Translations under genes and position numbers: made by a program
In this document: positions 11,595-37,994 of the stretch, piece by piece
Position numbering within the stretch: the first letter of the stretch is position 1
How the letters are laid out: every line of letters begins with the position of its first letter
Source: Candidatus Doudnabacteria bacterium
Lineage (GTDB): Bacteria; Patescibacteriota; Doudnabacteria; UBA920
Assembly (NCBI GenBank): GCA_963837465.1
Contig: CAWINB010000001.1
Location: 297,036-361,035 of the forward strand
Length of the DNA stretch: 64,000 bases
Reading direction: 5' to 3'
Notes under the pieces: generated by a model
What the model saw: the letters and a program-made list of their open reading frames with translations, nothing else
What the model was told of the DNA's origin: nothing
Databases searched by the model: none

Positions 11595-11679
11595 TGGTGC
11601 CGGAGGTGGGACTTGAACCCACAAGCCTTTCGGCGCGCGCTCTTGAGGCGCGTATGTTTGCCAATTTCATCACTCCGGC
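11595..11679 (-). tRNA. tRNA-Leu(CAA), class II, CCA encoded
   Basis: Acceptor gccggag/ctccggc; anticodon arm cgcgc-cuCAAga-gcgcg; variable arm ccgaaaggc; T tgggttcaagtccca; a-cca. Confidence 0.85.
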
Positions 11680-14134: not shown

Positions 14135-15328
14135 CTATAAAAACATATACAACAGACTAAAACACGCCGCTAACATAAATAGTACCATAAAGGCGGAAGT
14201 TAGGCTAAAACCCAAGGCCAGAGCCAGGTTAAACAAAAACGAGCCGATTATTACGGATAAAATTTTGCCCACGGCCAGGGACTGTTCGTAAAAAACCACG
14301 TAGCGCATAATATGGGTTTCCTGGGCGCGCTGGTAGGTCAGGGTGGTCAGCGGGATGGAAACCAGGTCTTTGCCGGTGCGCGACAGCGAGTCGGCCGCGA
14401 ACACAGTATAAGGAGTCAGAGCTACGAGGCGGAACAGCCAGAATAAAAAATAAAAAAATGAGCCGACCTTGAGCAAAAAACGCTTATTATACATATCCGC
14501 CACTTTGCCAATATAAACCGCCAGGACCGTGGCAATAAAAGTCGCGATGGTTACAAGCAGGCCGCTCTTTTCGTAACTTCCCACAATAATAAAAATAAAT
14601 ACCGGCCAAACATTGAGCAAAATCATCTCCTCGCCAAAACCCAAATAACCCAAAAACTTTTTGGGGAAAGTTTTAAACAATTCCCAGGTGTGCCGGTAAT
14701 GGTAAGGCTTGGGCAAAAAAACTTCCTTTTGCAAAAACAGCGGCACAAAAGAGCAGGTGTAAATGGCCGAGGCAATTACAAAGGTAAGGCGGATGCCAAA
14801 ATGCTGGGACAACAGGCCGCCAAAAAACGGACCCGCGATGCTGGCCAAATTTATGATGGCGTAAAGCACGGAGTATTCGCGACCTCGTTGCTGGTTTTGG
14901 GCGAAACGGGAAACCGAGGCGTCAAAGGCCGGCCAGTAAAGGCTTTTGTTGATGCCGTAAAAAATCGGCGCCACCCACAGCAAGTGGTGATTATCCTGCC
15001 CGGCGTATAAAAAAACCCAGTAAAGGATTTGCGGGGGGATGGAAAACAAAATCCCGTGGGAATAGCCAAAGCGCGCGGCAATTTTTCCGCCAAAGACAAT
15101 ACCGACAAGGTAGACCAAATAGACAATGCCGTTAAACCACAAAATTTGCGGAATGGTTAAATGAATAACCGCGTACAGAAAAATCGGCTCAAAAATACTG
15201 ACAATGGTCAGGGCGAAATTGGCTATCCCCACCGAAGCGTAAAGCTCGCCGATTTCCCGGCGGAGCTTGGTGGTGAAGTAATGGCGAAAGTGGAAATCCG
15301 GGGACATAAATCGCGGTTTCGTATGCAC
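14135..15328 (-). CDS. MFS-type transporter
   Basis: About 12 predicted transmembrane helices, 397 aa. Confidence 0.6.
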   Translation of the reverse strand: MHTKPRFMSPDFHFRHYFTTKLRREIGELYASVGIANFALTIVSIFEPIFLYAVIHLTIPQILWFNGIVYLVYLVGIVFGGKIAARFGYSHGILFSIPPQILYWVFLYAGQDNHHLLWVAPIFYGINKSLYWPAFDASVSRFAQNQQRGREYSVLYAIINLASIAGPFFGGLLSQHFGIRLTFVIASAIYTCSFVPLFLQKEVFLPKPYHYRHTWELFKTFPKKFLGYLGFGEEMILLNVWPVFIFIIVGSYEKSGLLVTIATFIATVLAVYIGKVADMYNKRFLLKVGSFFYFLFWLFRLVALTPYTVFAADSLSRTGKDLVSIPLTTLTYQRAQETHIMRYVVFYEQSLAVGKILSVIIGSFLFNLALALGFSLTSAFMVLFMLAACFSLLYMFL

Positions 15329-15355
15329 TAGTGTACTAGTACACTAGTGCATACG
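15320..15355. repeat. 36-bp perfect palindrome, family C (core GTACTAGTAC)
   Basis: cgtatgcactagtgtactagtacactagtgcatacg; intergenic. Confidence 0.9.
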
Positions 15356-15364
15356 ATAAAGGAA

Positions 15365-16060
15365 TTATTTCAAAATTTTTATTATTTGTTTTTCGGATAT
15401 CGGCCCGGGACGTAAAATTTCAACCATCCGATCCTTTACCCGCAAAACCGTGGACGGTTTGTTTTTTGGCAATTTTCCCGCGTCAATAATTATGTCGGGT
15501 TTGAATTTTTTGTTCCCGAACTGGGTAACAATATCATTTGCGGAATAGCTATCGTAACCGCCGGATAAATGCAGCGATGGATTAGCGCTCGTTGCGGTTA
15601 TGGGCTGTTTTAAAAACTTTGCCAAGTCCATCGCAATTTGGTTATTTGGCATCCTCAGGCCGATCGAATTTGTACCGGCGGATAATTGTCGCGACGGCAC
15701 GCCCCGGCGTGCCGCTACCGGCAGCACTAACGTTAATGCCCCGGGCCAAAACTTTTTTGCCAGTTTACCGGCTGCCGAATTCCATCGCGCGATAGTTTTA
15801 GCATAAGCAACCGACGGCACGACAATATGCACAGGCTTGGTACTCTGTCGTTCCTTAATTTTATAAAGTTTTTTTATTGCCGCGGTGTTTGTGGCATCTG
15901 CCGCCAAGCCGTAACTGGTATCCGTAGGATAGGCCACAACCTTACCTTGTTTTAGCGCGGCCACGCAGGCATGGATAATTTTTTTATGGTATTTTTTTTC
16001 GTAATCAATAATAATCATTGGAGTAAGGGTGTGATTATGCCATCCCGGGATCCAAAACAT
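15365..16060 (-). CDS. tsaC: L-threonylcarbamoyladenylate synthase (YrdC/Sua5 domain)
   Basis: VVAYPTDTSYGLAADATN...KPVHIVVPS...; YrdC fold signature. Confidence 0.75.
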   Translation of the reverse strand: MFWIPGWHNHTLTPMIIIDYEKKYHKKIIHACVAALKQGKVVAYPTDTSYGLAADATNTAAIKKLYKIKERQSTKPVHIVVPSVAYAKTIARWNSAAGKLAKKFWPGALTLVLPVAARRGVPSRQLSAGTNSIGLRMPNNQIAMDLAKFLKQPITATSANPSLHLSGGYDSYSANDIVTQFGNKKFKPDIIIDAGKLPKNKPSTVLRVKDRMVEILRPGPISEKQIIKILK

Positions 16061-16124
16061 ATGCTCATGGCTGGATCCCGGATATTTCTCGGACGCACTC
16101 GAAATTCCGGGATGACACTAAAAC

Positions 16125-19100
16125 CTATATAACAAAATTTATCAACCTATGTTTGACGTAAATAGTCCTTTTCGGTTGCTGACCAGATAATACAGATTTA
16201 ATCGCGCTCAAATTCAAGGCCTGCCGTGTGATTTCTTGCTCATCGGTAAAAGTCGGCACATTTATTTTTCCCTTAACCTTGCCATTGATTTGAATGACGA
16301 TATCTACCGTTTCATCAATAACAAACTTAGCATCCCATTCCGGCCACTGTTCCAATTGAAGCGATTTTTTGCCGCCCAGCAGCTGGTTTAACTCTTCGCT
16401 AATATGGGGCGCGAAAGGATAAAGCAAAACTAAGAACTTTTTAAAGTTTTCCTTGCTTATATTTCTATGATAACTCATTATCCCTGGCCGCTCTGCCATT
16501 CTTTTGTGGCCAGAATCGCCGGAACCAGCCATTTCCTCGCGCGTGGAATAAATCTGGTTGACTAAAATCATAAAAGCCGGTACGCAGGTATTAAAACGGA
16601 AGTTTTCAATATCCTCGGTAACTTTTTTTATTGTCTTATGCAAAAGTTTATAAGTTTCGCCGCTTGTAAATTCCGGTCGTCCGCTGTTTTTTGCCTGGGA
16701 TATCTCTACTCCTATTTTATAAACTTTTTCTAAAAATCTCTTAACTCCCGCGACTCCTTTGTCGTTCCAGGAAACCATAGCTTCGTGGGGTCCCAAAAAC
16801 AATTCATACATACGTAAAGTATCGGCTCCGTCAGATTTAACTATATCATCCGGGTTCACTACGTTGCCGCGGCTTTTGCTCATTTTTTCCCCGTCAGAGC
16901 CTAAGATTATACCGTGAGGCTTGCGCAAAACATAAGGTTCTTTAACCGTAACCAAACCCTGGTCGTATAAAAATAAATTCCAAAAACGGCTGTACAATAA
17001 ATGCAAAGTCGTGTGCTCCATGCCTCCAAAGTAAATATCCACCGGCGTCCAATGCTTTTGGTTTTTTAAGGCGGCGAATTCTTTTTTATTTTTTGGGTCG
17101 GTATACCTAAGCCAGTACCATGAGCTTCCCGCCCACTGTGGCATGGTATTGGTCTCGCGCTTAGCCGGCCCTTTGCAAACCGGGCATTTGACGTTTACCC
17201 ATTTGGTAATGGAAGCCAAAGGCGATTCCCCTGTCCCGGTTGGTTCGTATTTTTTAACAGGCGGCAGTTTAACCGGCAAATCTTTGTCCGGTACGGGAAT
17301 CCATCCAACGTCGCGTTTTAGAGATATAAAACTTAGAGATTGATTAAGGACTTCGGGTTCTTTTTTGGCCGTAAAATGTGACTTTACCGTGCCGGTTTTT
17401 ACAACATCGACCCCCAACGCCGACGCAAAAGACTCGCCGTCGGAAACTGGCACCGCATAATCGCTTATATCGTACAGGCAAACAAATTTTTTACAATTGT
17501 TTTTTATAGTTTTAAAGTCAAAGCCTTTTTTTAACGCCGCTGTTACTGTCGCTCTTTGTTTGCCGTCCAAAAATTCACCGGAAAATGGGGTACCGGCCAA
17601 AATTAAAGCGTTTATTTTTATTCCCCTCTCTAAAAGCCGCAATGCCACCACACCCCCGAAAGAATGACCGACTACAACTGTACTGTCGTCAAATTTAAGT
17701 TTTTTTATCGCAAATTCTGCCTGCTCTTCATCACTGGGATTTTTACTGTGCGGTAAATTGGCCGCCTGTACTTCAAAGCCTCGGTTTTCTAGCTCCTTTT
17801 TTAACCAGGGAATAAAAGCATCTTTTGTTGTTTCGCCTTTACCATGCAAAATCACAAAACGTTTTATATTTGAATCTTTTAAAGCGCACTTGGCGCAATG
17901 AACCAAGGGAATCGGCTCGCCCCAATACCTTTGCCTGCTAAATACCCAATCGCGGAGTTTATAGTTAGTAACGTATTTACCGGCGCCTTGAACTACGCTA
18001 AAATCAGCAATTGCTTTTCTGGCTTTAAGCGTGTCCATACCCGTGAATTGGCTGGCGTTAAGCATTACGCCTTCGCCCGTATAAGCTTCGGCCATTTCCT
18101 CAACTTTAATTTGTTTATCTTTTGGCTGGATAACGAGCTTAAACGGCAGGCCGTATTTTTTGGCAAACTCAAAATCGCGCTGGTCGTGAGTTGGAGTGCA
18201 TTTTACAATACCGGTTCCGTAATCCATAATGGCAAAATTAGCAATATACAGAGGCATTTTCCAGCCGCCAAAATGGTTTATAACGTACTTGCCCAAAAAA
18301 TATCCGGATTTTTCTTTTTCAATGTTCAGAGGGTCTTTTATTTTTTCCTCAATGCACTTTTTTATAAACTCATTGGCTCCTTGTTCGTATTTTGTACCTT
18401 TAACCAATTTTTCTATTATAGGATGTTCCGGCGCGATGACCATAAAAGTCGCGCCCCAGGTCGTATGCGGCCAAGTGGTAAATGTAGCGAGCTTGATATC
18501 CATCCCGTCAACCTGCCAATATTCTTCCAGTCCTTCCGATTTTCCAATCCAGTTTTGCTGCTGCTGCTTTACGGCTTCGGGCCACGCGGGAAGGTTTTTT
18601 AGCCCTTCCAATAATTTTTCCGCGTAGGCCGTAATCTTTAAATACCATTGGCGCAATTCTTTTTTTTCCACAAGCGTGCCGCAACGTTCGCAACGGCCGT
18701 CTATGACTTCCTCATTGGCAAGGCCGGTTTTGTCTTTTGGACACCAGTTAATCAGACCCGTAGCCTCGTAGGCTAAACCCGCTTTGTAGAATTGCAAAAA
18801 CAACCACTGCGTCCATTTATAATAATTTGGGTCAGTGGTGTTTACTTCGCGCGACCAGTCAAAGCTCATTCCCCAGCTTCGCAATTGCCGCTTGGCATTT
18901 TTTACATTTTTTGCCGTTGAAATGGCCGGGTTAACGCCGGTCTTAATGGCATAATTTTCCGCCGGCAAACCGAACGCGTCCCAACCCATTGGAAAAATAG
19001 TTTCAAAGCCTTTTAGGCGATTGAACCTGGCCGTAACATCACCGGCAACATATGGCCGCAAATGTCCCATGTGCAAACCCTGGCCCGAAGGATACGGAAA

Positions 19101-19217
19101 TTCCGTTAAAATATACTTCTTGGGTTTTTTGGAAAAATCCTTAGCCAAAAAACTCTTATGGCTCTGCCAGTATGCCTGCCACTTTTTTTCTATTTTGGAG
19201 TGATTGTACTTTGACAT
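16125..19217 (-). CDS. leuS: Leucyl-tRNA synthetase (1030 aa) with an inserted alpha/beta serine-hydrolase-fold domain
   Basis: HMGH, CP1 editing motifs (TTWPHTTWG, CTPTHDQRDFEFA), KMSKS. Between CAKC and WIPVPDKDLPV an ~175-aa insert carries GHSFGG plus Asp and His (PF06821/YdeN-like triad). Confidence 0.9.
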   Translation of the reverse strand: MSKYNHSKIEKKWQAYWQSHKSFLAKDFSKKPKKYILTEFPYPSGQGLHMGHLRPYVAGDVTARFNRLKGFETIFPMGWDAFGLPAENYAIKTGVNPAISTAKNVKNAKRQLRSWGMSFDWSREVNTTDPNYYKWTQWLFLQFYKAGLAYEATGLINWCPKDKTGLANEEVIDGRCERCGTLVEKKELRQWYLKITAYAEKLLEGLKNLPAWPEAVKQQQQNWIGKSEGLEEYWQVDGMDIKLATFTTWPHTTWGATFMVIAPEHPIIEKLVKGTKYEQGANEFIKKCIEEKIKDPLNIEKEKSGYFLGKYVINHFGGWKMPLYIANFAIMDYGTGIVKCTPTHDQRDFEFAKKYGLPFKLVIQPKDKQIKVEEMAEAYTGEGVMLNASQFTGMDTLKARKAIADFSVVQGAGKYVTNYKLRDWVFSRQRYWGEPIPLVHCAKCALKDSNIKRFVILHGKGETTKDAFIPWLKKELENRGFEVQAANLPHSKNPSDEEQAEFAIKKLKFDDSTVVVGHSFGGVVALRLLERGIKINALILAGTPFSGEFLDGKQRATVTAALKKGFDFKTIKNNCKKFVCLYDISDYAVPVSDGESFASALGVDVVKTGTVKSHFTAKKEPEVLNQSLSFISLKRDVGWIPVPDKDLPVKLPPVKKYEPTGTGESPLASITKWVNVKCPVCKGPAKRETNTMPQWAGSSWYWLRYTDPKNKKEFAALKNQKHWTPVDIYFGGMEHTTLHLLYSRFWNLFLYDQGLVTVKEPYVLRKPHGIILGSDGEKMSKSRGNVVNPDDIVKSDGADTLRMYELFLGPHEAMVSWNDKGVAGVKRFLEKVYKIGVEISQAKNSGRPEFTSGETYKLLHKTIKKVTEDIENFRFNTCVPAFMILVNQIYSTREEMAGSGDSGHKRMAERPGIMSYHRNISKENFKKFLVLLYPFAPHISEELNQLLGGKKSLQLEQWPEWDAKFVIDETVDIVIQINGKVKGKINVPTFTDEQEITRQALNLSAIKSVLSGQQPKRTIYVKHRLINFVI
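17334..17864 (-). other. Ser-hydrolase (YdeN/RBBP9-like) domain inserted in LeuS (residues about 452-628)
   Basis: VILHGKGETTKDAFIPWL...VVVGHSFGGVVALRL...LYDISDYAVP...KSHF. Confidence 0.6.
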
Positions 19218-19224
19218 AATTTTA

Positions 19225-19470
19225 TTAAGCGGCTTTAGACAATTCAGTATCCTGTTCTTCGTTGCTATCTTTTTTCCTTCTTAAATCATTTGTCATTTTT
19301 AAAACTTCGTCCAAATCCATATCAGAAAATTCATGCCTTTCGGTAAGACGCCGAAAATTTATACCCTTACCTTGTTCATAATCAAATTTTCTTTCTCGCG
19401 TAAATTTATGAGAATTAAATACTAAATAATTTTTTTGCGTTTTGGGTTGTAATTTTTTCAATTTCATCAA
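19225..19470 (-). CDS. Hypothetical small protein (81 aa)
   Basis: ORF overlapping the tatD 3' end by 56 nt. Confidence 0.3.
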   Translation of the reverse strand: MMKLKKLQPKTQKNYLVFNSHKFTRERKFDYEQGKGINFRRLTERHEFSDMDLDEVLKMTNDLRRKKDSNEEQDTELSKAA

Positions 19471-20293
19471 CAGATAAATTTTTTATCTGCGCCGCTTTTT
19501 CAGCCACGAATTTAACATAGGAGGGTTCGTTTCTTTTTCCGCGCATTGGGACCGGGGTTAAGTAGGGGCAGTCGGTTTCCAGGACAAAGCGATCGTTAGG
19601 CGTGTTTTTTACCAGCTTTTCCATATTTCCGGTCTTATCAAAGGTGATTATACCATTAAAGGAAACATAGCCGCCAAGGGCTAAAAACTGGTCCAAGACT
19701 TCCCAGGAGCCGGTGTAGGAGTGCAATACAAAACGCGGTAGATCTGATTTAAGGGATTCCTCGCTGCGCTCGGAACGGTTCCAGAGATGAGGATTTTTTA
19801 AAATGTCCAAAATGTCCAAGCACGCATCGTCCGTGCCTTTGGAAGAACGCGAATGGATGACCAAGGTTTTATTTAATTCTTTGGCCAGTTTAAGCTGTTC
19901 TATAAATGCCTCGGCCTGCGGTTTTTTTACGGCTGAAAGGTCTCCAGCTTCAGGCAAGCGGAAATAATCCAACCCGCACTCCCCTATTCCCACAACTTTG
20001 GGGCGCGAAGCCAATTTTTTATATTCTTCGTAATTAAATTTTTCCTCACGCGTTTTAAAATGCGTTTCCTCTTCATCCAGCTCCTGGGAATAAGTATGCA
20101 CCGGATGGATGCCAACCACGGCGTAAACATCTTTTTCAAACTTCTCCGCCATAGCTACCGCCTGCCGCGAAGTATCCGCTTGCGTGCCCACATTAACAAC
20201 ACTCACGCCCTCACTCAAGGCGCGCCTAACAACCCCTTCCGCGTCCTCCTTAAACGCGGCAAAATTTACGTGTGCGTGGGTGTCTGTCAGCAT
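19415..20293 (-). CDS. tatD: TatD-family metal-dependent hydrolase/DNase
   Basis: MLTDTHAHVNF...; TatD H-x-H start and conserved acidic residues. Confidence 0.8.
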   Translation of the reverse strand: MLTDTHAHVNFAAFKEDAEGVVRRALSEGVSVVNVGTQADTSRQAVAMAEKFEKDVYAVVGIHPVHTYSQELDEEETHFKTREEKFNYEEYKKLASRPKVVGIGECGLDYFRLPEAGDLSAVKKPQAEAFIEQLKLAKELNKTLVIHSRSSKGTDDACLDILDILKNPHLWNRSERSEESLKSDLPRFVLHSYTGSWEVLDQFLALGGYVSFNGIITFDKTGNMEKLVKNTPNDRFVLETDCPYLTPVPMRGKRNEPSYVKFVAEKAAQIKNLSVDEIEKITTQNAKKLFSI

Positions 20294-20332
20294 GAATTTG
20301 GAAGTAAGAATTATGAATTAAGGCAAGAAATG

Positions 20333-21841
20333 TTATTCAATCCTCGGAAACAGCCTCGGAATATTTTCCAATTTTGGTTCTTTTAAAACTGCTAAAATCT
20401 TTTCGCTGGTGTGGGGAAGGAATGGCTGCAGCAAATTTGCTATACTCCAAAGATTTCTTAATAAATCCTTGATATATACTTCACCGGTTTTTTGGTCCGC
20501 TTTAATAACTTTAAAAGGCTCTTTGAGTTGAATAAATTTATCGGCCAGCTGAATATGCCGCCATATCTCATCAATAGCTTTTTGAATCTCATACTTATTT
20601 AACAGACTTTGATTTGTTTCCTGCCATTGTTCCATAATTCCTAATTCATAATTCATAATTCCCGCGTTTATCGCCATCTTCATAATCCTGCTGGTCAAAT
20701 TCCCGATTCCATTGGCAAGTCCCGCGTTGTAGCTTTCCAAAAATTTTTCCCAGGTGTAGTCGCCATCTTCAAAGGTGGAAATTTCGCGGAGTAAGTAATA
20801 GCGCAGGGCGTCTGTGGCTTGTTCTTTGTTTAGGCCTTTAGACTCGAGCAAATCTAAAAGTTGGTAAGGATCGGCAACATTGCCCAAGCTTTTGGACATC
20901 TTCTGACCATTCATTAATATATGCCCATGGATAATTATTTGCTTGGAATTGGGAAGTCCCGCGCTCATAAGCATGGCCTGCCACATGGCGGACTGCTGGC
21001 GGAGATTGTCTTTGCCGGCAATCTGTACTGCGTTAGGCTTGTCTATCGTACCCCAGAAATCTTCAAAAGAGTATCCTTTATCCTTAATCTTTAATCCTTC
21101 ACTTTCCGGCCAGTCAAGCGTAGAGACATAATTTATCAAAGCGTCAAACCACACGTACATTACATGGTTTTCGTCATCCGGCACCGGCACGCCCCAGGAC
21201 ATTTTGGATTTGAGCCTGGAGATGGAAAAATCCCGCGGGCCGGATTTTACAAATTGCTTGATTTCGTTAAAGCGGAAATCGGGCACCACAAACTCCGGAT
21301 TTTTTTCGTAAAAATCCAAAAGCGGCTGTTCGTACCTGGAAAACCTGAAAAAATAATTTTCCTCATCTATTAATTCAATTTTTAAATACGGGTGGATTAA
21401 ACACTGTCCCTGTTCGTTTAAATCGCTTTCGGTTTTTTCCAGCTCGCAGCCCACGCAATATTTAATCTTGTAAATTTTTTTGTAAATATCACCTTTATTA
21501 AAACAGCGTAACCAAAATTCCTGGGCGGCTTTTATGTGGTGGGCATCGGTAGTGCGGATAAAATGCGCTTTCGGGCTTATGCCCAATGCCGGCATTAACT
21601 GCCTGAATTTATCCGCGTATTCGTTTACATAGCCTTGGATATCTTTTCCTTCGCTTTCGGCCTTTCTCTGGATTTTAAGGCCGTGCTCGTCGGTGCCGGT
21701 GTTAAAAAATACGTCCTGCTTTAAAATTTCCCCATGGAACCGCGCGATTGCGTCCGCCTGGACAATTTCCAAAGCAAACCCCAAATGCGGTTCGGAGTTA
21801 ACGTATGGGAGAGTTGTGGTGATGTAAAATTTATCTGACAT
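20333..21841 (-). CDS. metG: Methionyl-tRNA synthetase
   Basis: LPYVNSEPHLGFA (HIGH-like), KMSKSLGN. Confidence 0.9.
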   Translation of the reverse strand: MSDKFYITTTLPYVNSEPHLGFALEIVQADAIARFHGEILKQDVFFNTGTDEHGLKIQRKAESEGKDIQGYVNEYADKFRQLMPALGISPKAHFIRTTDAHHIKAAQEFWLRCFNKGDIYKKIYKIKYCVGCELEKTESDLNEQGQCLIHPYLKIELIDEENYFFRFSRYEQPLLDFYEKNPEFVVPDFRFNEIKQFVKSGPRDFSISRLKSKMSWGVPVPDDENHVMYVWFDALINYVSTLDWPESEGLKIKDKGYSFEDFWGTIDKPNAVQIAGKDNLRQQSAMWQAMLMSAGLPNSKQIIIHGHILMNGQKMSKSLGNVADPYQLLDLLESKGLNKEQATDALRYYLLREISTFEDGDYTWEKFLESYNAGLANGIGNLTSRIMKMAINAGIMNYELGIMEQWQETNQSLLNKYEIQKAIDEIWRHIQLADKFIQLKEPFKVIKADQKTGEVYIKDLLRNLWSIANLLQPFLPHTSEKILAVLKEPKLENIPRLFPRIE

Positions 21842-35423: not shown

Positions 35424-37994
35424 GTGGGAGAAGTAACTAGTTTTGCCAAAAATTTAGCGGAATTTGATAATCATAAAGAAGTTATCCGCCTGGAAAATGA
35501 AGGCTTGGGCGTTGTCGGATTTATCGCCATCCACACCCTTAAAAATTCTTATCCTTCTTTGGGCGCGACCAGGGTCTGGAATTATAAAACGGAAACCGAG
35601 GCGCTTAGTGACGCTTTGAGGCTTTCGCGGCTGATGTCCAACAAATCCCTTTACGCGGACTTGCCTTACGGAGGAGCAAAAGCGGCTCTAATGGTTTCCA
35701 AAGACAACCCTCCCGACCGCGAAGAACTTTTTTCCTGGTACGCGGGTGAGATAAATAAATTAGACGGGAGGTTTATTACCGGTTCCGATGTGGGAATTCA
35801 GGAACAAGACGTGGTTTTAATGAGCGGCCTGAGCAAATTTGTTATAGGAGGCAATGTCCCCGCCGGATACTATACCGCTCTTGGCGTGTTAAATGGCATT
35901 GAAACCGCCCTGGAAATTATTTACGGTTCGCCGGAAATTTCCGGAAAAACTTTCGCGGTGCAGGGTCTGGGAAAAACGGGACTGGAATTAGTCAAGCTGC
36001 TTTACGGCAAAGGCGGAAAAATTACAGTCACGGACGCTGACTCTAAAAAAATTGCCCAGGTTCTGGAAATGTTTCCCGGCGTTTCGGCCGTGAATGTTTA
36101 CGGCATATACAGCCAGAAAGTTGATATCTTCTGTCCTTGCGCCCTCCACAACAGCATTGATTCCCTAAGCGCGCCGCTGTTGCGGTGCGCCGCCATTGTC
36201 GGCAGCGCGAACAATCAAATGGAAAGCCCTGAGGTTGAACTATTGGTGCGTAATCGGGGAATTTTATACGCCATAGACTACATTGTAAACAACGGCGGCT
36301 TTATTAGCGTGGTAGACCAATATCAAAACGGAACCCATGACGATGCCCGGATAAAACAAAAGCTGCTGATAGTAAAAAATAAATTAAAAAAAATATTAAC
36401 CGGGGAAGAGCCCAAACCAAGCCCCGCCGCGACGACCGATGGTTCCGGAGTTTCCGTGTCCGGCGATACCGCGTTGTTCCCAAAAAAAACCCTTCCTGGC
36501 GACATTGCGGAACTTATTGGTTCTTTTAAAACTCAAAAGGAAGCTGTTTGGATTGAGCGCGGGGAAAGGCAAGCGCTAAAATTATTCGGCGAAATGTCCA
36601 GGCGGGTACCGGCTTACCGGGATTTCCTTAAAAAAAACGGGGTGAACGCGGAAACTGTAAACAGCATCGACGATTTTAAACATCTGCCGCTGACCAATAA
36701 GGAAAATTACCTGCTTTCGTACCCGTTGGAAAGCTTATGCTGGGACGGCAAATTCAAAGGGCAAAAGTGGACCATCTCATCCACATCCGGCTCAACCGGC
36801 GAACCTTTTTATTTCCCCAGAACCGGTTTTCAGGATGAGCAATTCGGACTTACGGCCGGGGCCTGCTTGGTCGATTTTTTCGAAATTGACAAAAAAACCA
36901 CCCTTTTTCTGGATTGCTTTGCCTTAGGAGTCTGGATTGGAGGAGTATTTATGTACCAGGCAATAAAGTATTTAATTGACCAAGGACGTTATCCCCTTTC
37001 TGTTATTACCCCGGGCGCGGACAAAGCCGAAGCCATAAAAGCTATAAAAAATTTGGCGCCGAAATTCGACCAGATAATTATAGGCGGCTACGCTCCGTTG
37101 GTTAAAGATTTAATAGATGTGGGCGGGGCCCAGGGCCTAAGGTGGAACGATTACAGCGTAAAATATTTTTTCGCGGCCGAAGGCTTCACCGAAGGCTACC
37201 GCGACTATATTGTAAAAAACGGCGGGGCGAAAAATATTTTTACCGATACCATTAACCACTACGGCACAGCTGACTTGGGGACAATGGCGCACGAAACCCC
37301 GGTAAGCATTTTAATCAGGCGCCTGGCCGCGGCCGACCAAAATCTGGCCCAGGCTTTATTTTCCCAGACCCACAAACAACCCACTTTAACCCAGTACATT
37401 CCGGAGCTTTATTATTTTGAACAGGCGGACAACCGGGTAGTCTGCTCATCTTCCGGGGGAATGCCGTTAATAAGGTATGATTTAAAAGACCGCGGCGGGG
37501 TTAAAAAACTGGAGCAAATTAAGCAAATTCTTAAAGAGCGAAATATTGACATCGAGCGGGAAATAAAAAAATCCGGTTTGGAAAAATTTTTATGGCAATT
37601 GCCTTTTGTCTATCTTTTTGAAAGGGATGATCTTACCGCCAGCATCTACAGCGTAAACATTTATCCCCAAAGCATCCGCAAAGTTCTGGAAAAGCGGGAA
37701 TTTGAAAAATTTTTGACAGGTAAATTCAGTATGCTGGTGGACTATGACCAGGGACAGAACCAGTTCCTGCAAATTAACCTGGAGTTGAAGAGCAATGTTG
37801 ATTCCGGGGAAGGTCTGGAAAAAAACCTTCTTGGCTCCGTTGTGGATCAGCTGCTTTTGGAAAATTCGGAGTGGAGGGATTTTTACGCCGACCAGGGCAT
37901 ACGCCATAAAATAATACCCCAATTGCTGTTTTGGCCCTATCAGGACCCTAAATATTTTAAGCCGGGCGCGAAACAAAAATGGGTGAAAAAATAA
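35424..37994 (+). CDS. Fusion protein: Glu/Leu/Phe/Val-type amino-acid dehydrogenase (N-terminal ~330 aa) plus PaaK/F390-synthetase-like adenylate-forming enzyme (C-terminal ~500 aa)
   Basis: N-terminal LPYGGAKAAL (dehydrogenase lysine motif) and Rossmann VQGLGKTG; C-terminal PaaK-family TSGSTGEP P-loop with the characteristic N-terminal VPAYRDFL...DFKHLPLTNKENY; GTG start. Confidence 0.7.
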   Translation: MGEVTSFAKNLAEFDNHKEVIRLENEGLGVVGFIAIHTLKNSYPSLGATRVWNYKTETEALSDALRLSRLMSNKSLYADLPYGGAKAALMVSKDNPPDREELFSWYAGEINKLDGRFITGSDVGIQEQDVVLMSGLSKFVIGGNVPAGYYTALGVLNGIETALEIIYGSPEISGKTFAVQGLGKTGLELVKLLYGKGGKITVTDADSKKIAQVLEMFPGVSAVNVYGIYSQKVDIFCPCALHNSIDSLSAPLLRCAAIVGSANNQMESPEVELLVRNRGILYAIDYIVNNGGFISVVDQYQNGTHDDARIKQKLLIVKNKLKKILTGEEPKPSPAATTDGSGVSVSGDTALFPKKTLPGDIAELIGSFKTQKEAVWIERGERQALKLFGEMSRRVPAYRDFLKKNGVNAETVNSIDDFKHLPLTNKENYLLSYPLESLCWDGKFKGQKWTISSTSGSTGEPFYFPRTGFQDEQFGLTAGACLVDFFEIDKKTTLFLDCFALGVWIGGVFMYQAIKYLIDQGRYPLSVITPGADKAEAIKAIKNLAPKFDQIIIGGYAPLVKDLIDVGGAQGLRWNDYSVKYFFAAEGFTEGYRDYIVKNGGAKNIFTDTINHYGTADLGTMAHETPVSILIRRLAAADQNLAQALFSQTHKQPTLTQYIPELYYFEQADNRVVCSSSGGMPLIRYDLKDRGGVKKLEQIKQILKERNIDIEREIKKSGLEKFLWQLPFVYLFERDDLTASIYSVNIYPQSIRKVLEKREFEKFLTGKFSMLVDYDQGQNQFLQINLELKSNVDSGEGLEKNLLGSVVDQLLLENSEWRDFYADQGIRHKIIPQLLFWPYQDPKYFKPGAKQKWVKK

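What the first reader, a model, noticed from the sequence alone, without database searches (positions are those of the whole stretch)
17334..17864. Leucyl-tRNA synthetase carries an apparently intact serine-hydrolase-fold domain inserted in its zinc-knuckle region
LeuS here is 1030 aa, about 170-200 aa longer than typical. An ~175-aa block sits between CAKC and WIPVPDKDLPV. It contains GHSFGG (nucleophile elbow), a downstream Asp (DISDYAVP) and His (KSHF), matching the YdeN/RBBP9 serine hydrolase fold. The canonical CP1 editing domain is also present (TTWPHTTWG, CTPTHDQRDFEFA), so this is an additional esterase-like module. Aminoacyl-tRNA editing is ester hydrolysis, so an accessory hydrolase fused into an aaRS could be a second proofreading or deacylation activity or a moonlighting function.
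Basis: partly seen in the sequence, partly recalled or inferred. Interest (0 to 1): 0.65.

Follow-up and report, generated by a model that had tools for sequence, protein, structure and literature searches.

The report
Serine hydrolase nested inside leucyl-tRNA synthetase
An essential protein-synthesis enzyme (leucyl-tRNA synthetase) of a tiny candidate-phyla-radiation bacterium carries a complete, apparently active RBBP9/YdeN-type serine hydrolase folded into one of its surface loops. The same module recurs in most related LeuRS at several different loops and in other housekeeping proteins, which I found described in no paper.

Summary
LeuRS (window 16125-19217, minus strand, 1030 aa) has a 194-aa in-frame block (aa 445-638, window 17304-17885). 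It sits between the first CxxC of the second zinc knuckle and the conserved G-(I/V)VPVP strand.

The block is a full RBBP9/YdeN-family alpha/beta hydrolase. AF2 gives pLDDT 88.8, and TM to RBBP9 and YdeN is 0.81-0.87. The triad is S519/D586/H614. HMGH, KMSKS, both zinc knuckles and the CP1 editing residues of LeuRS are intact.

It is not a one-off. 95 of the 120 closest LeuRS (Patescibacteria) carry the module, at four different loops. The triad is essentially invariant although modules are only about 43% identical. Two LeuRS that are 96% identical differ cleanly by its presence. One relative encodes it as a separate gene 2 nt upstream of leuS.

The module is also nested in ValRS, IleRS, AlaRS, Fmt, TsaD, Der, UvrB and SecA.

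Best reading: an autonomous, tethered accessory hydrolase, probably an alpha-aminoacyl ester/amide hydrolase, that uses LeuRS as its carrier. The evidence does not favour a geometrically integrated second editing site, but a tethered aa-tRNA deacylase role is not excluded. No literature was found.

The parts
16125..19217 (-). leuS coding sequence, 1030 aa including the nested module
   Evidence: ORF. Pfam tRNA-synt_1, tRNA-synt_1_2 (E 4e-56) and Anticodon_1. Full-length AF2 model pLDDT 86.1, pTM 0.76. That model matches T. thermophilus and E. coli LeuRS structures with TMt 0.82-0.86.
17304..17885 (-). Nested block, LeuRS aa 445-638: N-linker, RBBP9/YdeN-type alpha/beta hydrolase, C-linker
   Evidence: Absent from insert-less relatives, which read HCxxC-G-(I/V)VPVP. 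Family and fold assignment.
17316..17876 (-). Hydrolase domain proper (aa 448-634, HMM envelope)
   Evidence: Custom HMM of the module, 223.9 bits. pLDDT 80-96 in the full-length model, with the C-linker at 632-635 below 50.
17841..17846 (-). H458-G459, the conserved 'HG' motif after strand 1 (the usual oxyanion-hole position in alpha/beta hydrolases)
   Evidence: H in 91% and G in 96% of nested copies, 100% in free-standing copies. The oxyanion-hole role is inferred from family knowledge.
17661..17663 (-). Ser519, nucleophile in G-H-S-F-G-G
   Evidence: Ser in 97 of 97 embedded copies. Aligns with RBBP9 S75.
17460..17462 (-). Asp586, catalytic acid (second D of DISD)
   Evidence: D in 86 and E in 9 of 97 embedded copies, D in 20 of 20 free-standing copies. 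Aligns with RBBP9 D138.
17376..17378 (-). His614, catalytic base (KSHF)
   Evidence: H in 96 of 97 embedded copies (the exception is a truncated sequence) and in 20 of 20 free-standing copies.
17886..17897 (-). First CxxC (CAKC, aa 441-444) of the second zinc knuckle, immediately upstream of the insert
   Evidence: C441 invariant in all 120. C444 is C in 114 of 120 relatives.
17175..17186 (-). Second CxxC (CPVC, aa 678-681) of the same knuckle
   Evidence: Both Cys invariant in 120 of 120.
18003..18557 (-). Canonical CP1 editing domain (aa 221-405), intact
   Evidence: PF13603 E 4.4e-56. The residues aligned to T252, H344, D345, R347 and D348 (window numbering) are invariant in all 120 relatives, with or without the hydrolase.
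19062..19073 (-). HMGH (HIGH) signature
16872..16886 (-). KMSKS signature

Best explanation
Window 17304-17885 (minus strand) encodes a complete, self-folding RBBP9/YdeN-family (PF06821) minimal alpha/beta serine hydrolase. It has the triad Ser519-Asp586-His614 and the HG motif H458-G459. It is nested through short flexible linkers in the one-residue loop between the first CxxC of the second zinc knuckle and the G-(I/V)VPVP strand of an otherwise complete, functional-looking LeuRS. (Shown.)

It is one instance of a widespread and evolutionarily fluid association in Patescibacteria. The module is gained, lost, replaced and moved between at least four LeuRS loops. It can sit as a separate gene just upstream of leuS. 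It also occurs inside other housekeeping proteins. (Shown.)

I infer that it works as an autonomous accessory enzyme tethered to LeuRS, not as a structurally integrated part of the synthetase. By analogy with RBBP9, Ser519 would attack the carbonyl of a small acyl substrate, most likely an alpha-aminoacyl ester or amide with a free amine. This forms an acyl-enzyme that water, activated by His614/Asp586, then releases. (Inferred.)

What nesting in LeuRS provides is obligatory co-expression and physical proximity to the charging machinery, not a shared active site. (Inferred.) The physiological substrate is unknown.

Confidence is about 0.9 for what the block is and about 0.5 for the autonomous-tethered mechanism. 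The number given is for the mechanism.
For: Identity and integrity:
- Pfam, PDB sequence and fold matches.
- Triad invariant in 97 embedded copies whose mean pairwise identity is only 0.43 for site A and 0.29 for site C, which implies selection on catalysis.
- In the full-length AF2 model both the LeuRS body and the module are confident, and the C-terminal linker is of low confidence.
- LeuRS motifs, zinc ligands and CP1 residues are intact.

Autonomy and fluidity:
- 95 of the 120 closest LeuRS carry the module: 85 at site A in the CP1 hairpin, 8 at site C (this one), and the rest at site B and site D.
- L002 and P0089 show site D.
- P0035 and P0115 are 96% identical in amino acids and 91% in nucleotides, are syntenic, and differ by a clean module-for-hairpin-loop replacement.
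- The window's module is closer to a site-A copy (54% identity), a site-D copy (58%) and a free-standing copy (49%) than to the same-site copy of its closest LeuRS relative P0024 (40%). The two LeuRS cores are 78% identical.
- A free-standing copy lies 2 nt upstream of an insert-less leuS in the same synteny.
- The module is nested in ValRS at the homologous loop, and in IleRS, AlaRS, Fmt, TsaD, Der, UvrB and SecA. It is fused terminally to Adk, LspA, Smr, Ham1, methyltransferase, glyoxalase and peptidases.
- Other small enzyme modules (NUDIX, His_Phos_1, HAD, methyltransferase) occupy the same aaRS loops.

Chemistry:
- RBBP9 forms aminoacyl-enzyme intermediates and needs a free alpha-amine (PMC8866121).
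- RBBP9 activates the L-valyl ester valacyclovir (Shenoy 2020, cited in PMC7730578).
Against: - No activity was measured.
- The RBBP9 residue that anchors the alpha-amine (E108) is not demonstrably conserved, because the lid region aligns poorly. The substrate class is therefore an analogy.
- About 95% of the nested instances I saw are in aaRS that have editing domains (LeuRS, ValRS, IleRS, AlaRS), and one free copy is operonic with leuS. This could mean a real mechanistic link to aa-tRNA rather than mere tethering. The sample is biased, because hits were ranked by similarity to a LeuRS-derived query.
- Nested copies are more basic than free-standing ones. This would fit proximity to nucleic acid, but the comparison is not phylogenetically controlled.
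- The tools return no coordinates, so the position of Ser519 relative to the tRNA 3' end path is unknown.
Confidence: 0.5

Rival explanations
1. Tethered deacylase. The module hydrolyses the aminoacyl ester of mischarged or unwanted aa-tRNA, or of released aminoacyl esters, as they leave LeuRS. It would act like a trans-editing factor that has been tied to the synthetase, complementing CP1.
For: - Most nested hosts found are aaRS with hydrolytic editing: LeuRS 41 of 62 long representatives and 41 of 46 long genome loci (2 of them site C), ValRS, IleRS and AlaRS, plus Fmt, which binds aa-tRNA.
- Capture is repeated at four LeuRS loops and at the homologous ValRS loop.
- One free-standing copy is operonic with leuS.
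- RBBP9 hydrolyses free-amine aminoacyl substrates, including an aminoacyl ester of a nucleoside analogue.
- Nested copies are more basic than free ones.
- A tethered trans-factor does not need fixed geometry, so multiple insertion sites do not refute this reading.
Against: - CP1 is fully intact, and its key residues are invariant with or without the module.
- The module is dispensable between LeuRS that are 96% identical.
- The same module is nested in UvrB, SecA, Der and TsaD and fused to Adk, LspA and others.
- Unrelated enzyme modules sit in the same loops.
- Free-standing copies have no conserved translation-related neighbourhood.
- No known aa-tRNA deacylase uses this fold (from my own knowledge).
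Confidence: 0.22
2. Amino-acid supply. The module is an aminopeptidase that releases hydrophobic N-terminal residues from scavenged peptides next to the synthetases that use them. This would help an organism that cannot make amino acids.
For: - RBBP9 is an aminopeptidase for hydrophobic and aromatic residues.
- The aaRS hosts are all for aliphatic amino acids: Leu, Val, Ile, Ala.
- Family members are fused to Peptidase_S51 and to an S9-type peptidase.
- That CPR bacteria lack amino-acid biosynthesis is established knowledge, not tested here.
Against: - No host-specific pocket differences were shown.
- Non-aaRS hosts exist.
- Free diffusion of amino acids makes channelling over a flexible tether doubtful.
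- The RBBP9 pocket residues are not demonstrably conserved.
Confidence: 0.1
3. Selfish or neutral passenger. The module is a cassette that spreads between surface loops of essential genes by recombination. It persists because precise loss is rare, with no benefit tied to LeuRS.
For: - Distribution is patchy and polyphyletic, and the module tree disagrees with the host tree.
- There is presence/absence polymorphism.
- There are many hosts, all conserved housekeeping genes.
- Junctions fall inside very conserved host motifs.
- The L053 ValRS has three tandem modules with near-identical DNA boundaries but interiors that are about 45% identical by eye.
- LeuRS genes are mosaic.
Against: - There are no target-site duplications or terminal inverted repeats at the window junctions.
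- There is no nuclease or intein motif: the insert starts with Ala or Lys, ends with Gly, and the next residue is Trp or Ile.
- The catalytic triad and HG motif are maintained across deep divergence, which a pure passenger would not require.
Confidence: 0.1
4. Assembly or annotation artefact: a chimeric contig or a mis-joined gene.
For: None beyond the general risk in metagenome assemblies. The related contig L001 is full of frameshifts.
Against: - The window ORF is a single uninterrupted 1030-aa reading frame.
- The identical protein is on a 700-kb contig.
- The same junction occurs in seven other LeuRS clusters among the 120 closest, plus P0246, and in L001, L029 and L044.
- Both halves of LeuRS flank the module in register, and the full-length model folds confidently.
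Confidence: 0.01

Closest known systems
RBBP9 (human; PDB 2QS9, 7OEX, 9FCR) and YdeN (B. subtilis; PDB 1UXO), Pfam PF06821 Ser_hydrolase
   Same: - Same minimal alpha/beta-hydrolase fold of about 185 aa (TM 0.81-0.87, rmsd 2.2-2.4 A).
- Same GHSxG nucleophile elbow, the same Asp and, by homologous position, the His.
- Best sequence matches in the PDB.
   Different: - Those proteins are free-standing. This one is nested inside a LeuRS loop.
- Sequence identity is only 23-25%.
- The lid region (aa about 545-565) differs, and the RBBP9 alpha-amine anchor E108 is not demonstrably conserved.
- Nested copies conserve extra residues (E498, Q499, D551, D583, E620) that free-standing copies do not.
Hydrolytic editing domains inserted in aaRS catalytic cores: CP1 of LeuRS/IleRS/ValRS and the INS (YbaK-like) domain of ProRS
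   Same: A hydrolase-type domain inserted into the Rossmann-fold body of a synthetase. CP1 is present in this same protein.
   Different: - Different folds, and no Ser-Asp-His triad (from my own knowledge).
- CP1 is universal and fixed in position. This module is patchy, moves between loops and is dispensable.
Free-standing trans-editing factors (AlaX, YbaK/ProXp, Dtd)
   Same: Accessory proteins, patchily distributed, sometimes fused to or encoded near their synthetase. The free-standing copy upstream of leuS in L086 resembles this arrangement.
   Different: Unrelated folds. No Pfam hit of the module to any of these families. No deacylase activity is shown for PF06821 proteins.
Inteins
   Same: - Nested in frame in conserved motifs of essential housekeeping proteins.
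- Patchy presence or absence among close relatives.
- Many host proteins, including aaRS, SecA and UvrB-type ATPases.
   Different: - No splicing residues at either junction and no homing endonuclease.
- The module is a conserved enzyme and is predicted to stay in the mature protein.
Bacterial LeuRS with a zinc-binding ZN-2 region (T. thermophilus 2BTE/1H3N) and E. coli LeuRS (4AQ7)
   Same: The LeuRS body is canonical, with TMt 0.82-0.86. HMGH, KMSKS, CP1 and the four Cys of the knuckle are conserved.
   Different: None of the solved LeuRS (760-876 residues) has a domain in this loop.

Membership tests
RBBP9/YdeN serine hydrolases (Pfam PF06821) | Sequence match to the family profile | tested here: met
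   - The isolated insert scores 21.9 bits against a gathering cut-off of 22 (E 1.8e-4) but matches over the whole profile, 1-157 of 172.
- phmmer against RBBP9 gives 1.2e-11 and against YdeN 7.5e-7.
- Homologous nested copies score up to 1e-24 on PF06821.
- The result is borderline on Pfam alone and clear overall.
RBBP9/YdeN serine hydrolases (Pfam PF06821) | Minimal alpha/beta-hydrolase fold of about 185 aa | tested here: met
   AF2 pLDDT 88.8. Foldseek ranks 1-7 are RBBP9 and YdeN, TM 0.81-0.87.
RBBP9/YdeN serine hydrolases (Pfam PF06821) | Ser-Asp-His triad with the Ser in GxSxG | tested here: met
   S519, D586 and H614 are present, and the columns are essentially invariant in 97 nested and 20 free-standing copies.
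RBBP9/YdeN serine hydrolases (Pfam PF06821) | Hydrolase activity, and free-alpha-amine aminoacyl specificity as in RBBP9 | not testable with these tools
   This needs enzyme assays. The pocket residues of RBBP9 (E108, Y99) could not be aligned reliably.
Bacterial leucyl-tRNA synthetase (class Ia) | HIGH and KMSKS signatures, Rossmann core, anticodon-binding domain | tested here: met
   HMGH at 49-52 and KMSKS at 778-782. Pfam families. Fold match to LeuRS structures.
Bacterial leucyl-tRNA synthetase (class Ia) | CP1 editing domain with the Thr-rich and HDxRD motifs | tested here: met
   PF13603 E 4e-56. T247, T248, T252, H344, D345, R347 and D348 are present. The window's lineage reads TTWPHT instead of TTRPDT.
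Inteins | N-terminal Cys/Ser nucleophile, C-terminal His-Asn, downstream Cys/Ser/Thr, HINT fold | tested here: not met
   The insert begins with Ala (Lys in some relatives), ends with Gly, and is followed by Trp or Ile. Its fold is alpha/beta hydrolase.
Transposable element / insertion sequence | Target-site duplication, terminal inverted repeats, transposase | tested here: not met
   No boundary repeats at 17304 or 17885. The whole insert is taken up by the hydrolase.
Known aa-tRNA trans-editing families (AlaX, YbaK/ProX, Dtd) | Membership by sequence or fold | tested here: not met
   No Pfam hit to these families. The structural neighbours are alpha/beta hydrolases only.

The most novel reading that the evidence does not exclude
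The RBBP9/YdeN module is a non-splicing, intein-like mobile protein cassette. It is a self-folding enzyme domain that colonises permissive loops inside conserved motifs of essential genes (LeuRS, ValRS, IleRS, AlaRS, UvrB, SecA, Der, TsaD and others) in ultra-small bacteria, and in MAGs labelled as DPANN archaea. It would spread by recombination at conserved boundaries and be swapped like an allele. Its catalytic activity would provide the selective benefit that keeps it in place.
Probability: 0.08. Interest if true: 0.9.

Novelty: new variant of a known kind. Interest (0 to 1): 0.62.

Why it matters
aaRS are among the best-studied enzymes, and their extra domains usually report extra functions such as editing, regulation or signalling.

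Here about four fifths of the closest LeuRS in a very large, uncultured bacterial radiation carry a catalytically intact serine hydrolase. This fold is not known to take part in tRNA biology. The position of the module shifts between loops, and its presence varies between near-identical genes.

If the module acts on aminoacyl esters, it would be a new class of translational quality-control or clean-up enzyme. If it is an autonomous passenger, it documents an unusual way for tiny genomes to package accessory enzymes inside essential proteins, alongside nested NUDIX, histidine-phosphatase, HAD and methyltransferase modules.

Either way it gives the orphan RBBP9/YdeN family a concrete, testable bacterial context. 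It is also a caution for annotation and phylogenomics that rely on LeuRS length and alignment.

Tried and rejected
1. The first homology search used the insert alone. It found only two LeuRS-linked fragments and suggested the insert was rare. This was a sensitivity limit of the word index. The full-length search and the exhaustive phmmer overturned it.

2. L002/P0001 first looked like a LeuRS with a 234-aa deletion. It is better explained as a fourth insertion site (D), between the catalytic core and the anticodon domain, as in P0089.

3. Intein: rejected, because there are no splice-junction residues.

4. Transposon or MITE: rejected, because there are no boundary repeats.

5. Compensation for a degenerate CP1: rejected, because CP1 residues are invariant with and without the module.

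6. A conserved gene neighbourhood for free-standing copies: not found. The 71 neighbours were diverse: HD x5, UvrD x2, class I aaRS x2, class II aaRS x1, Dtd x1. Class I aaRS genes lie within 3.5 kb in 5 of 37 loci, too few to argue from.

7. Mapping RBBP9 substrate-binding residues onto the module: inconclusive, because the lid aligns poorly.

8. A second copy of the module elsewhere in the window: none.

9. Literature searches for LeuRS/aaRS plus hydrolase or CPR, for PF06821, and for CPR plus domain insertion found nothing relevant.

10. The geometry of the active site relative to the tRNA path could not be obtained, because the structure tool returns no coordinates.
Full report
**What is there**

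The minus-strand ORF 16125-19217 encodes a 1030-aa LeuRS.

The extra block is 194 aa (aa 445-638, window 17304-17885). It lies between CAKC (441-444) and WIPVPDKDLPV (639-649). The partner CxxC of the knuckle is CPVC at 678-681. In insert-less relatives the sequence runs HCxxC-G-(I/V)VPVP, so the block is inserted at a single peptide bond of a one-residue loop.

**What the block is**

- Pfam gives alpha/beta-hydrolase families and a full-length, borderline match to Ser_hydrolase PF06821 (21.9 bits against a cut-off of 22).
- phmmer against PDB sequences gives human RBBP9 (E 1.2e-11) and B. subtilis YdeN (7.5e-7) as the only strong hits.
- An AF2 model of the block, aligned with 20 free-standing homologues, has pLDDT 88.8 and pTM 0.88.
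- Its seven best Foldseek matches in the PDB are RBBP9 and YdeN (TM 0.81-0.87, rmsd 2.2-2.4 A). Other alpha/beta hydrolases are far behind.
- The triad is Ser519 (GHSFGG), Asp586 (the second D of DISD, aligned to RBBP9 D138) and His614 (KSHF).

**Is LeuRS itself intact?**

HMGH, KMSKS, both CxxC pairs and the ZN-1 cysteines are conserved. So are the CP1 residues that align with the Thr-rich and HDxRD editing motifs. In 120 relatives these columns are invariant whether or not the hydrolase is present.

The full-length AF2 model has pLDDT 86.1 and pTM 0.76. It folds both the LeuRS body and the module confidently, with a low-confidence C-linker at 632-635. The body superposes on T. thermophilus and E. 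coli LeuRS with TMt 0.82-0.86, and no solved LeuRS has a domain at this loop.

**How widespread it is**

The first search with the insert alone was misleadingly sparse. The full-length search found the window's own protein on a 699,532-bp contig, and many LeuRS of 950-1200 aa from Patescibacteria such as Doudnabacteria and Paceibacterota.

A custom HMM of the module hits 95 of the 120 closest LeuRS. The positions fall into four sites:

- Site A: the first hairpin of CP1, between IGKSxG and TTRPDT. 85 proteins.
- Site C: this window's position. 8 proteins.
- Site B: inside CP1. A few proteins.
- Site D: between the catalytic core and the anticodon domain. P0089 and contig L002.

A scan of GTDB species representatives found at least 515 relatives. 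Of the best 80 loci:

- 41 are nested in LeuRS (39 at site A, 2 at site C).
- 5 are nested in ValRS, at the loop homologous to LeuRS site C.
- 37 carry a free-standing gene. Locus L026 carries both a nested LeuRS copy and a free-standing gene and is counted in both groups.

**Selection on catalysis**

Across 97 embedded copies:

- The nucleophile Ser is 97 of 97.
- The acid is D in 86 and E in 9.
- The His is 96 of 97, the exception being a truncated sequence.
- The HG motif is above 90%.

Meanwhile mean pairwise identity of the modules is only 0.43 (A-A) and 0.29 (C-C).

**Evolutionary behaviour**

- P0035 (site A) and P0115 (no module) are 96% identical in protein and 91% in DNA, and are syntenic. 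The module, a net 531 nt, is replaced by a native hairpin loop.
- Other close pairs also differ in state, such as P0069 and P0138 at 92% and P0033 (A) and P0074 (C) at 83%.
- Module and host trees disagree, and site-C copies are polyphyletic.
- The window's module is 54% identical to a site-A copy, 58% to a site-D copy and 49% to a free-standing protein. It is only 40% identical to the same-site module of P0024, whose LeuRS core is 78% identical.
- That free-standing protein (P0144) is encoded 2 nt upstream of an insert-less leuS in the same TatD-x-leuS synteny as the window.
- LeuRS genes themselves are mosaic.
- There are no boundary repeats in the window and no intein residues.

**Other hosts**

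The exhaustive phmmer search found 1129 hits at E <= 1e-3. Followed by Pfam, it shows the same module nested in:

- UvrB, AlaRS, IleRS, ValRS, Der, Fmt, TsaD and SecA.

It is fused terminally to:

- adenylate kinase, LspA, Smr, Ham1, methyltransferases, glyoxalase and peptidases.

NUDIX, histidine-phosphatase, HAD and methyltransferase modules occupy the same aaRS loops. Neighbours of free-standing copies are diverse.

**Interpretation**

Shown:
- A complete, conserved, independently folding RBBP9/YdeN hydrolase is nested in an intact LeuRS.
- The association is common, old and fluid.

Inferred:
- The module is an autonomous accessory enzyme tethered to LeuRS.
- By analogy with RBBP9 it is an alpha-aminoacyl ester/amide hydrolase. 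RBBP9 forms an aminoacyl-enzyme, requires a free alpha-amine and activates valacyclovir.

The attachment points are multiple, the module is dispensable, CP1 is intact, and there are non-tRNA hosts.

A relaxed form, a tethered trans-like deacylase, is still viable at about 0.2. It is favoured by the dominance of editing-type aaRS among hosts, the leuS adjacency, and the more basic charge of nested copies (uncontrolled).

An amino-acid-supply role and a selfish-cassette reading are each about 0.1.

**Novelty**

Annotation pipelines already label some of these proteins as LeuRS/esterase. Six literature searches found no description. I rate it a new variant of a known kind, namely an aaRS with an inserted accessory domain. 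Interest 0.62.

Noticed in passing
window 58699-58820 (-): LOOT RNA (Rfam RF03000), 84.9 bits against a gathering score of 46.4.
   Followed up: no
window 55925-57473: A 504-aa large serine recombinase (Resolvase + Recombinase domains, minus strand 55959-57473) overlaps the end of tRNA-Arg(TCT) at 55925-55999 (+). This may be the edge of an integrated element.
   Followed up: no
window 35424-37994 (+): An 856-aa ORF in which only the first ~315 aa match Glu/Leu/Phe/Val dehydrogenase. The C-terminal ~540 aa have no Pfam assignment.
   Followed up: no
window 16467-16538 (-), LeuRS aa 894-917: A second, small lineage-specific insertion in the anticodon-binding domain of the same LeuRS. It is predicted to be disordered, with pLDDT below 50.
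   Followed up: no
window 14135-21841; loci L001, L003, L005, L086: The gene order MetRS - TatD - small ORF - LeuRS - Sua5/YrdC - MFS transporter is shared with Doudnabacteria-type contigs L001, L003 and L005. L086 is cut inside leuS and shows only the upstream TatD - small ORF - hydrolase - leuS part. The small ORF upstream of leuS is variable: 81 aa here, 231 aa in L003, and a DUF559 endonuclease-like gene in L005.
   Followed up: partly
P0026, P0037, P0051, P0062, P0077, P0082 etc. (LeuRS site B); P0268 (IleRS); L053, L070 (ValRS): Other small enzyme modules are nested in the same aaRS loops in CPR bacteria: NUDIX, methyltransferase, HAD and histidine phosphatase. Sometimes they occur together with the hydrolase.
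   Followed up: partly
L053: ORF from 972, aa 647-1209: This ValRS has three tandem hydrolase modules plus a histidine-phosphatase module. The 63-nt junction segments differ at 2 nt, and the 23-nt module starts are identical. The module interiors are only about 45% identical in amino acids, judged by eye. This suggests recombination or gene conversion at module boundaries.
   Followed up: partly
L013, L015, L016, L020, L022, L023, L025, L026, L030, L031: Genome bins labelled Pacearchaeota, Woesearchaeota or Nanoarchaeota carry a bacterial-type LeuRS (about 40-50% identical to the window's) with the hydrolase at site A. This is either CPR-DPANN gene transfer or mislabelled bins.
   Followed up: no
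P0074 vs P0065 and P0023 vs P0089 (LeuRS alignment, ref positions ~211-420): LeuRS genes are mosaic. Pairs that are about 90% identical outside CP1 are only about 25-35% identical inside it. At least three variants of the Thr-rich motif occur: TTRPDT, TTWPHT and DSVPQT.
   Followed up: partly
window 11595-11679 (-): tRNA-Leu(CAA), the substrate of this LeuRS, is encoded 4.5 kb away. tRNA-Pro(GGG) and two tRNA-Arg genes are also in the window.
   Followed up: no
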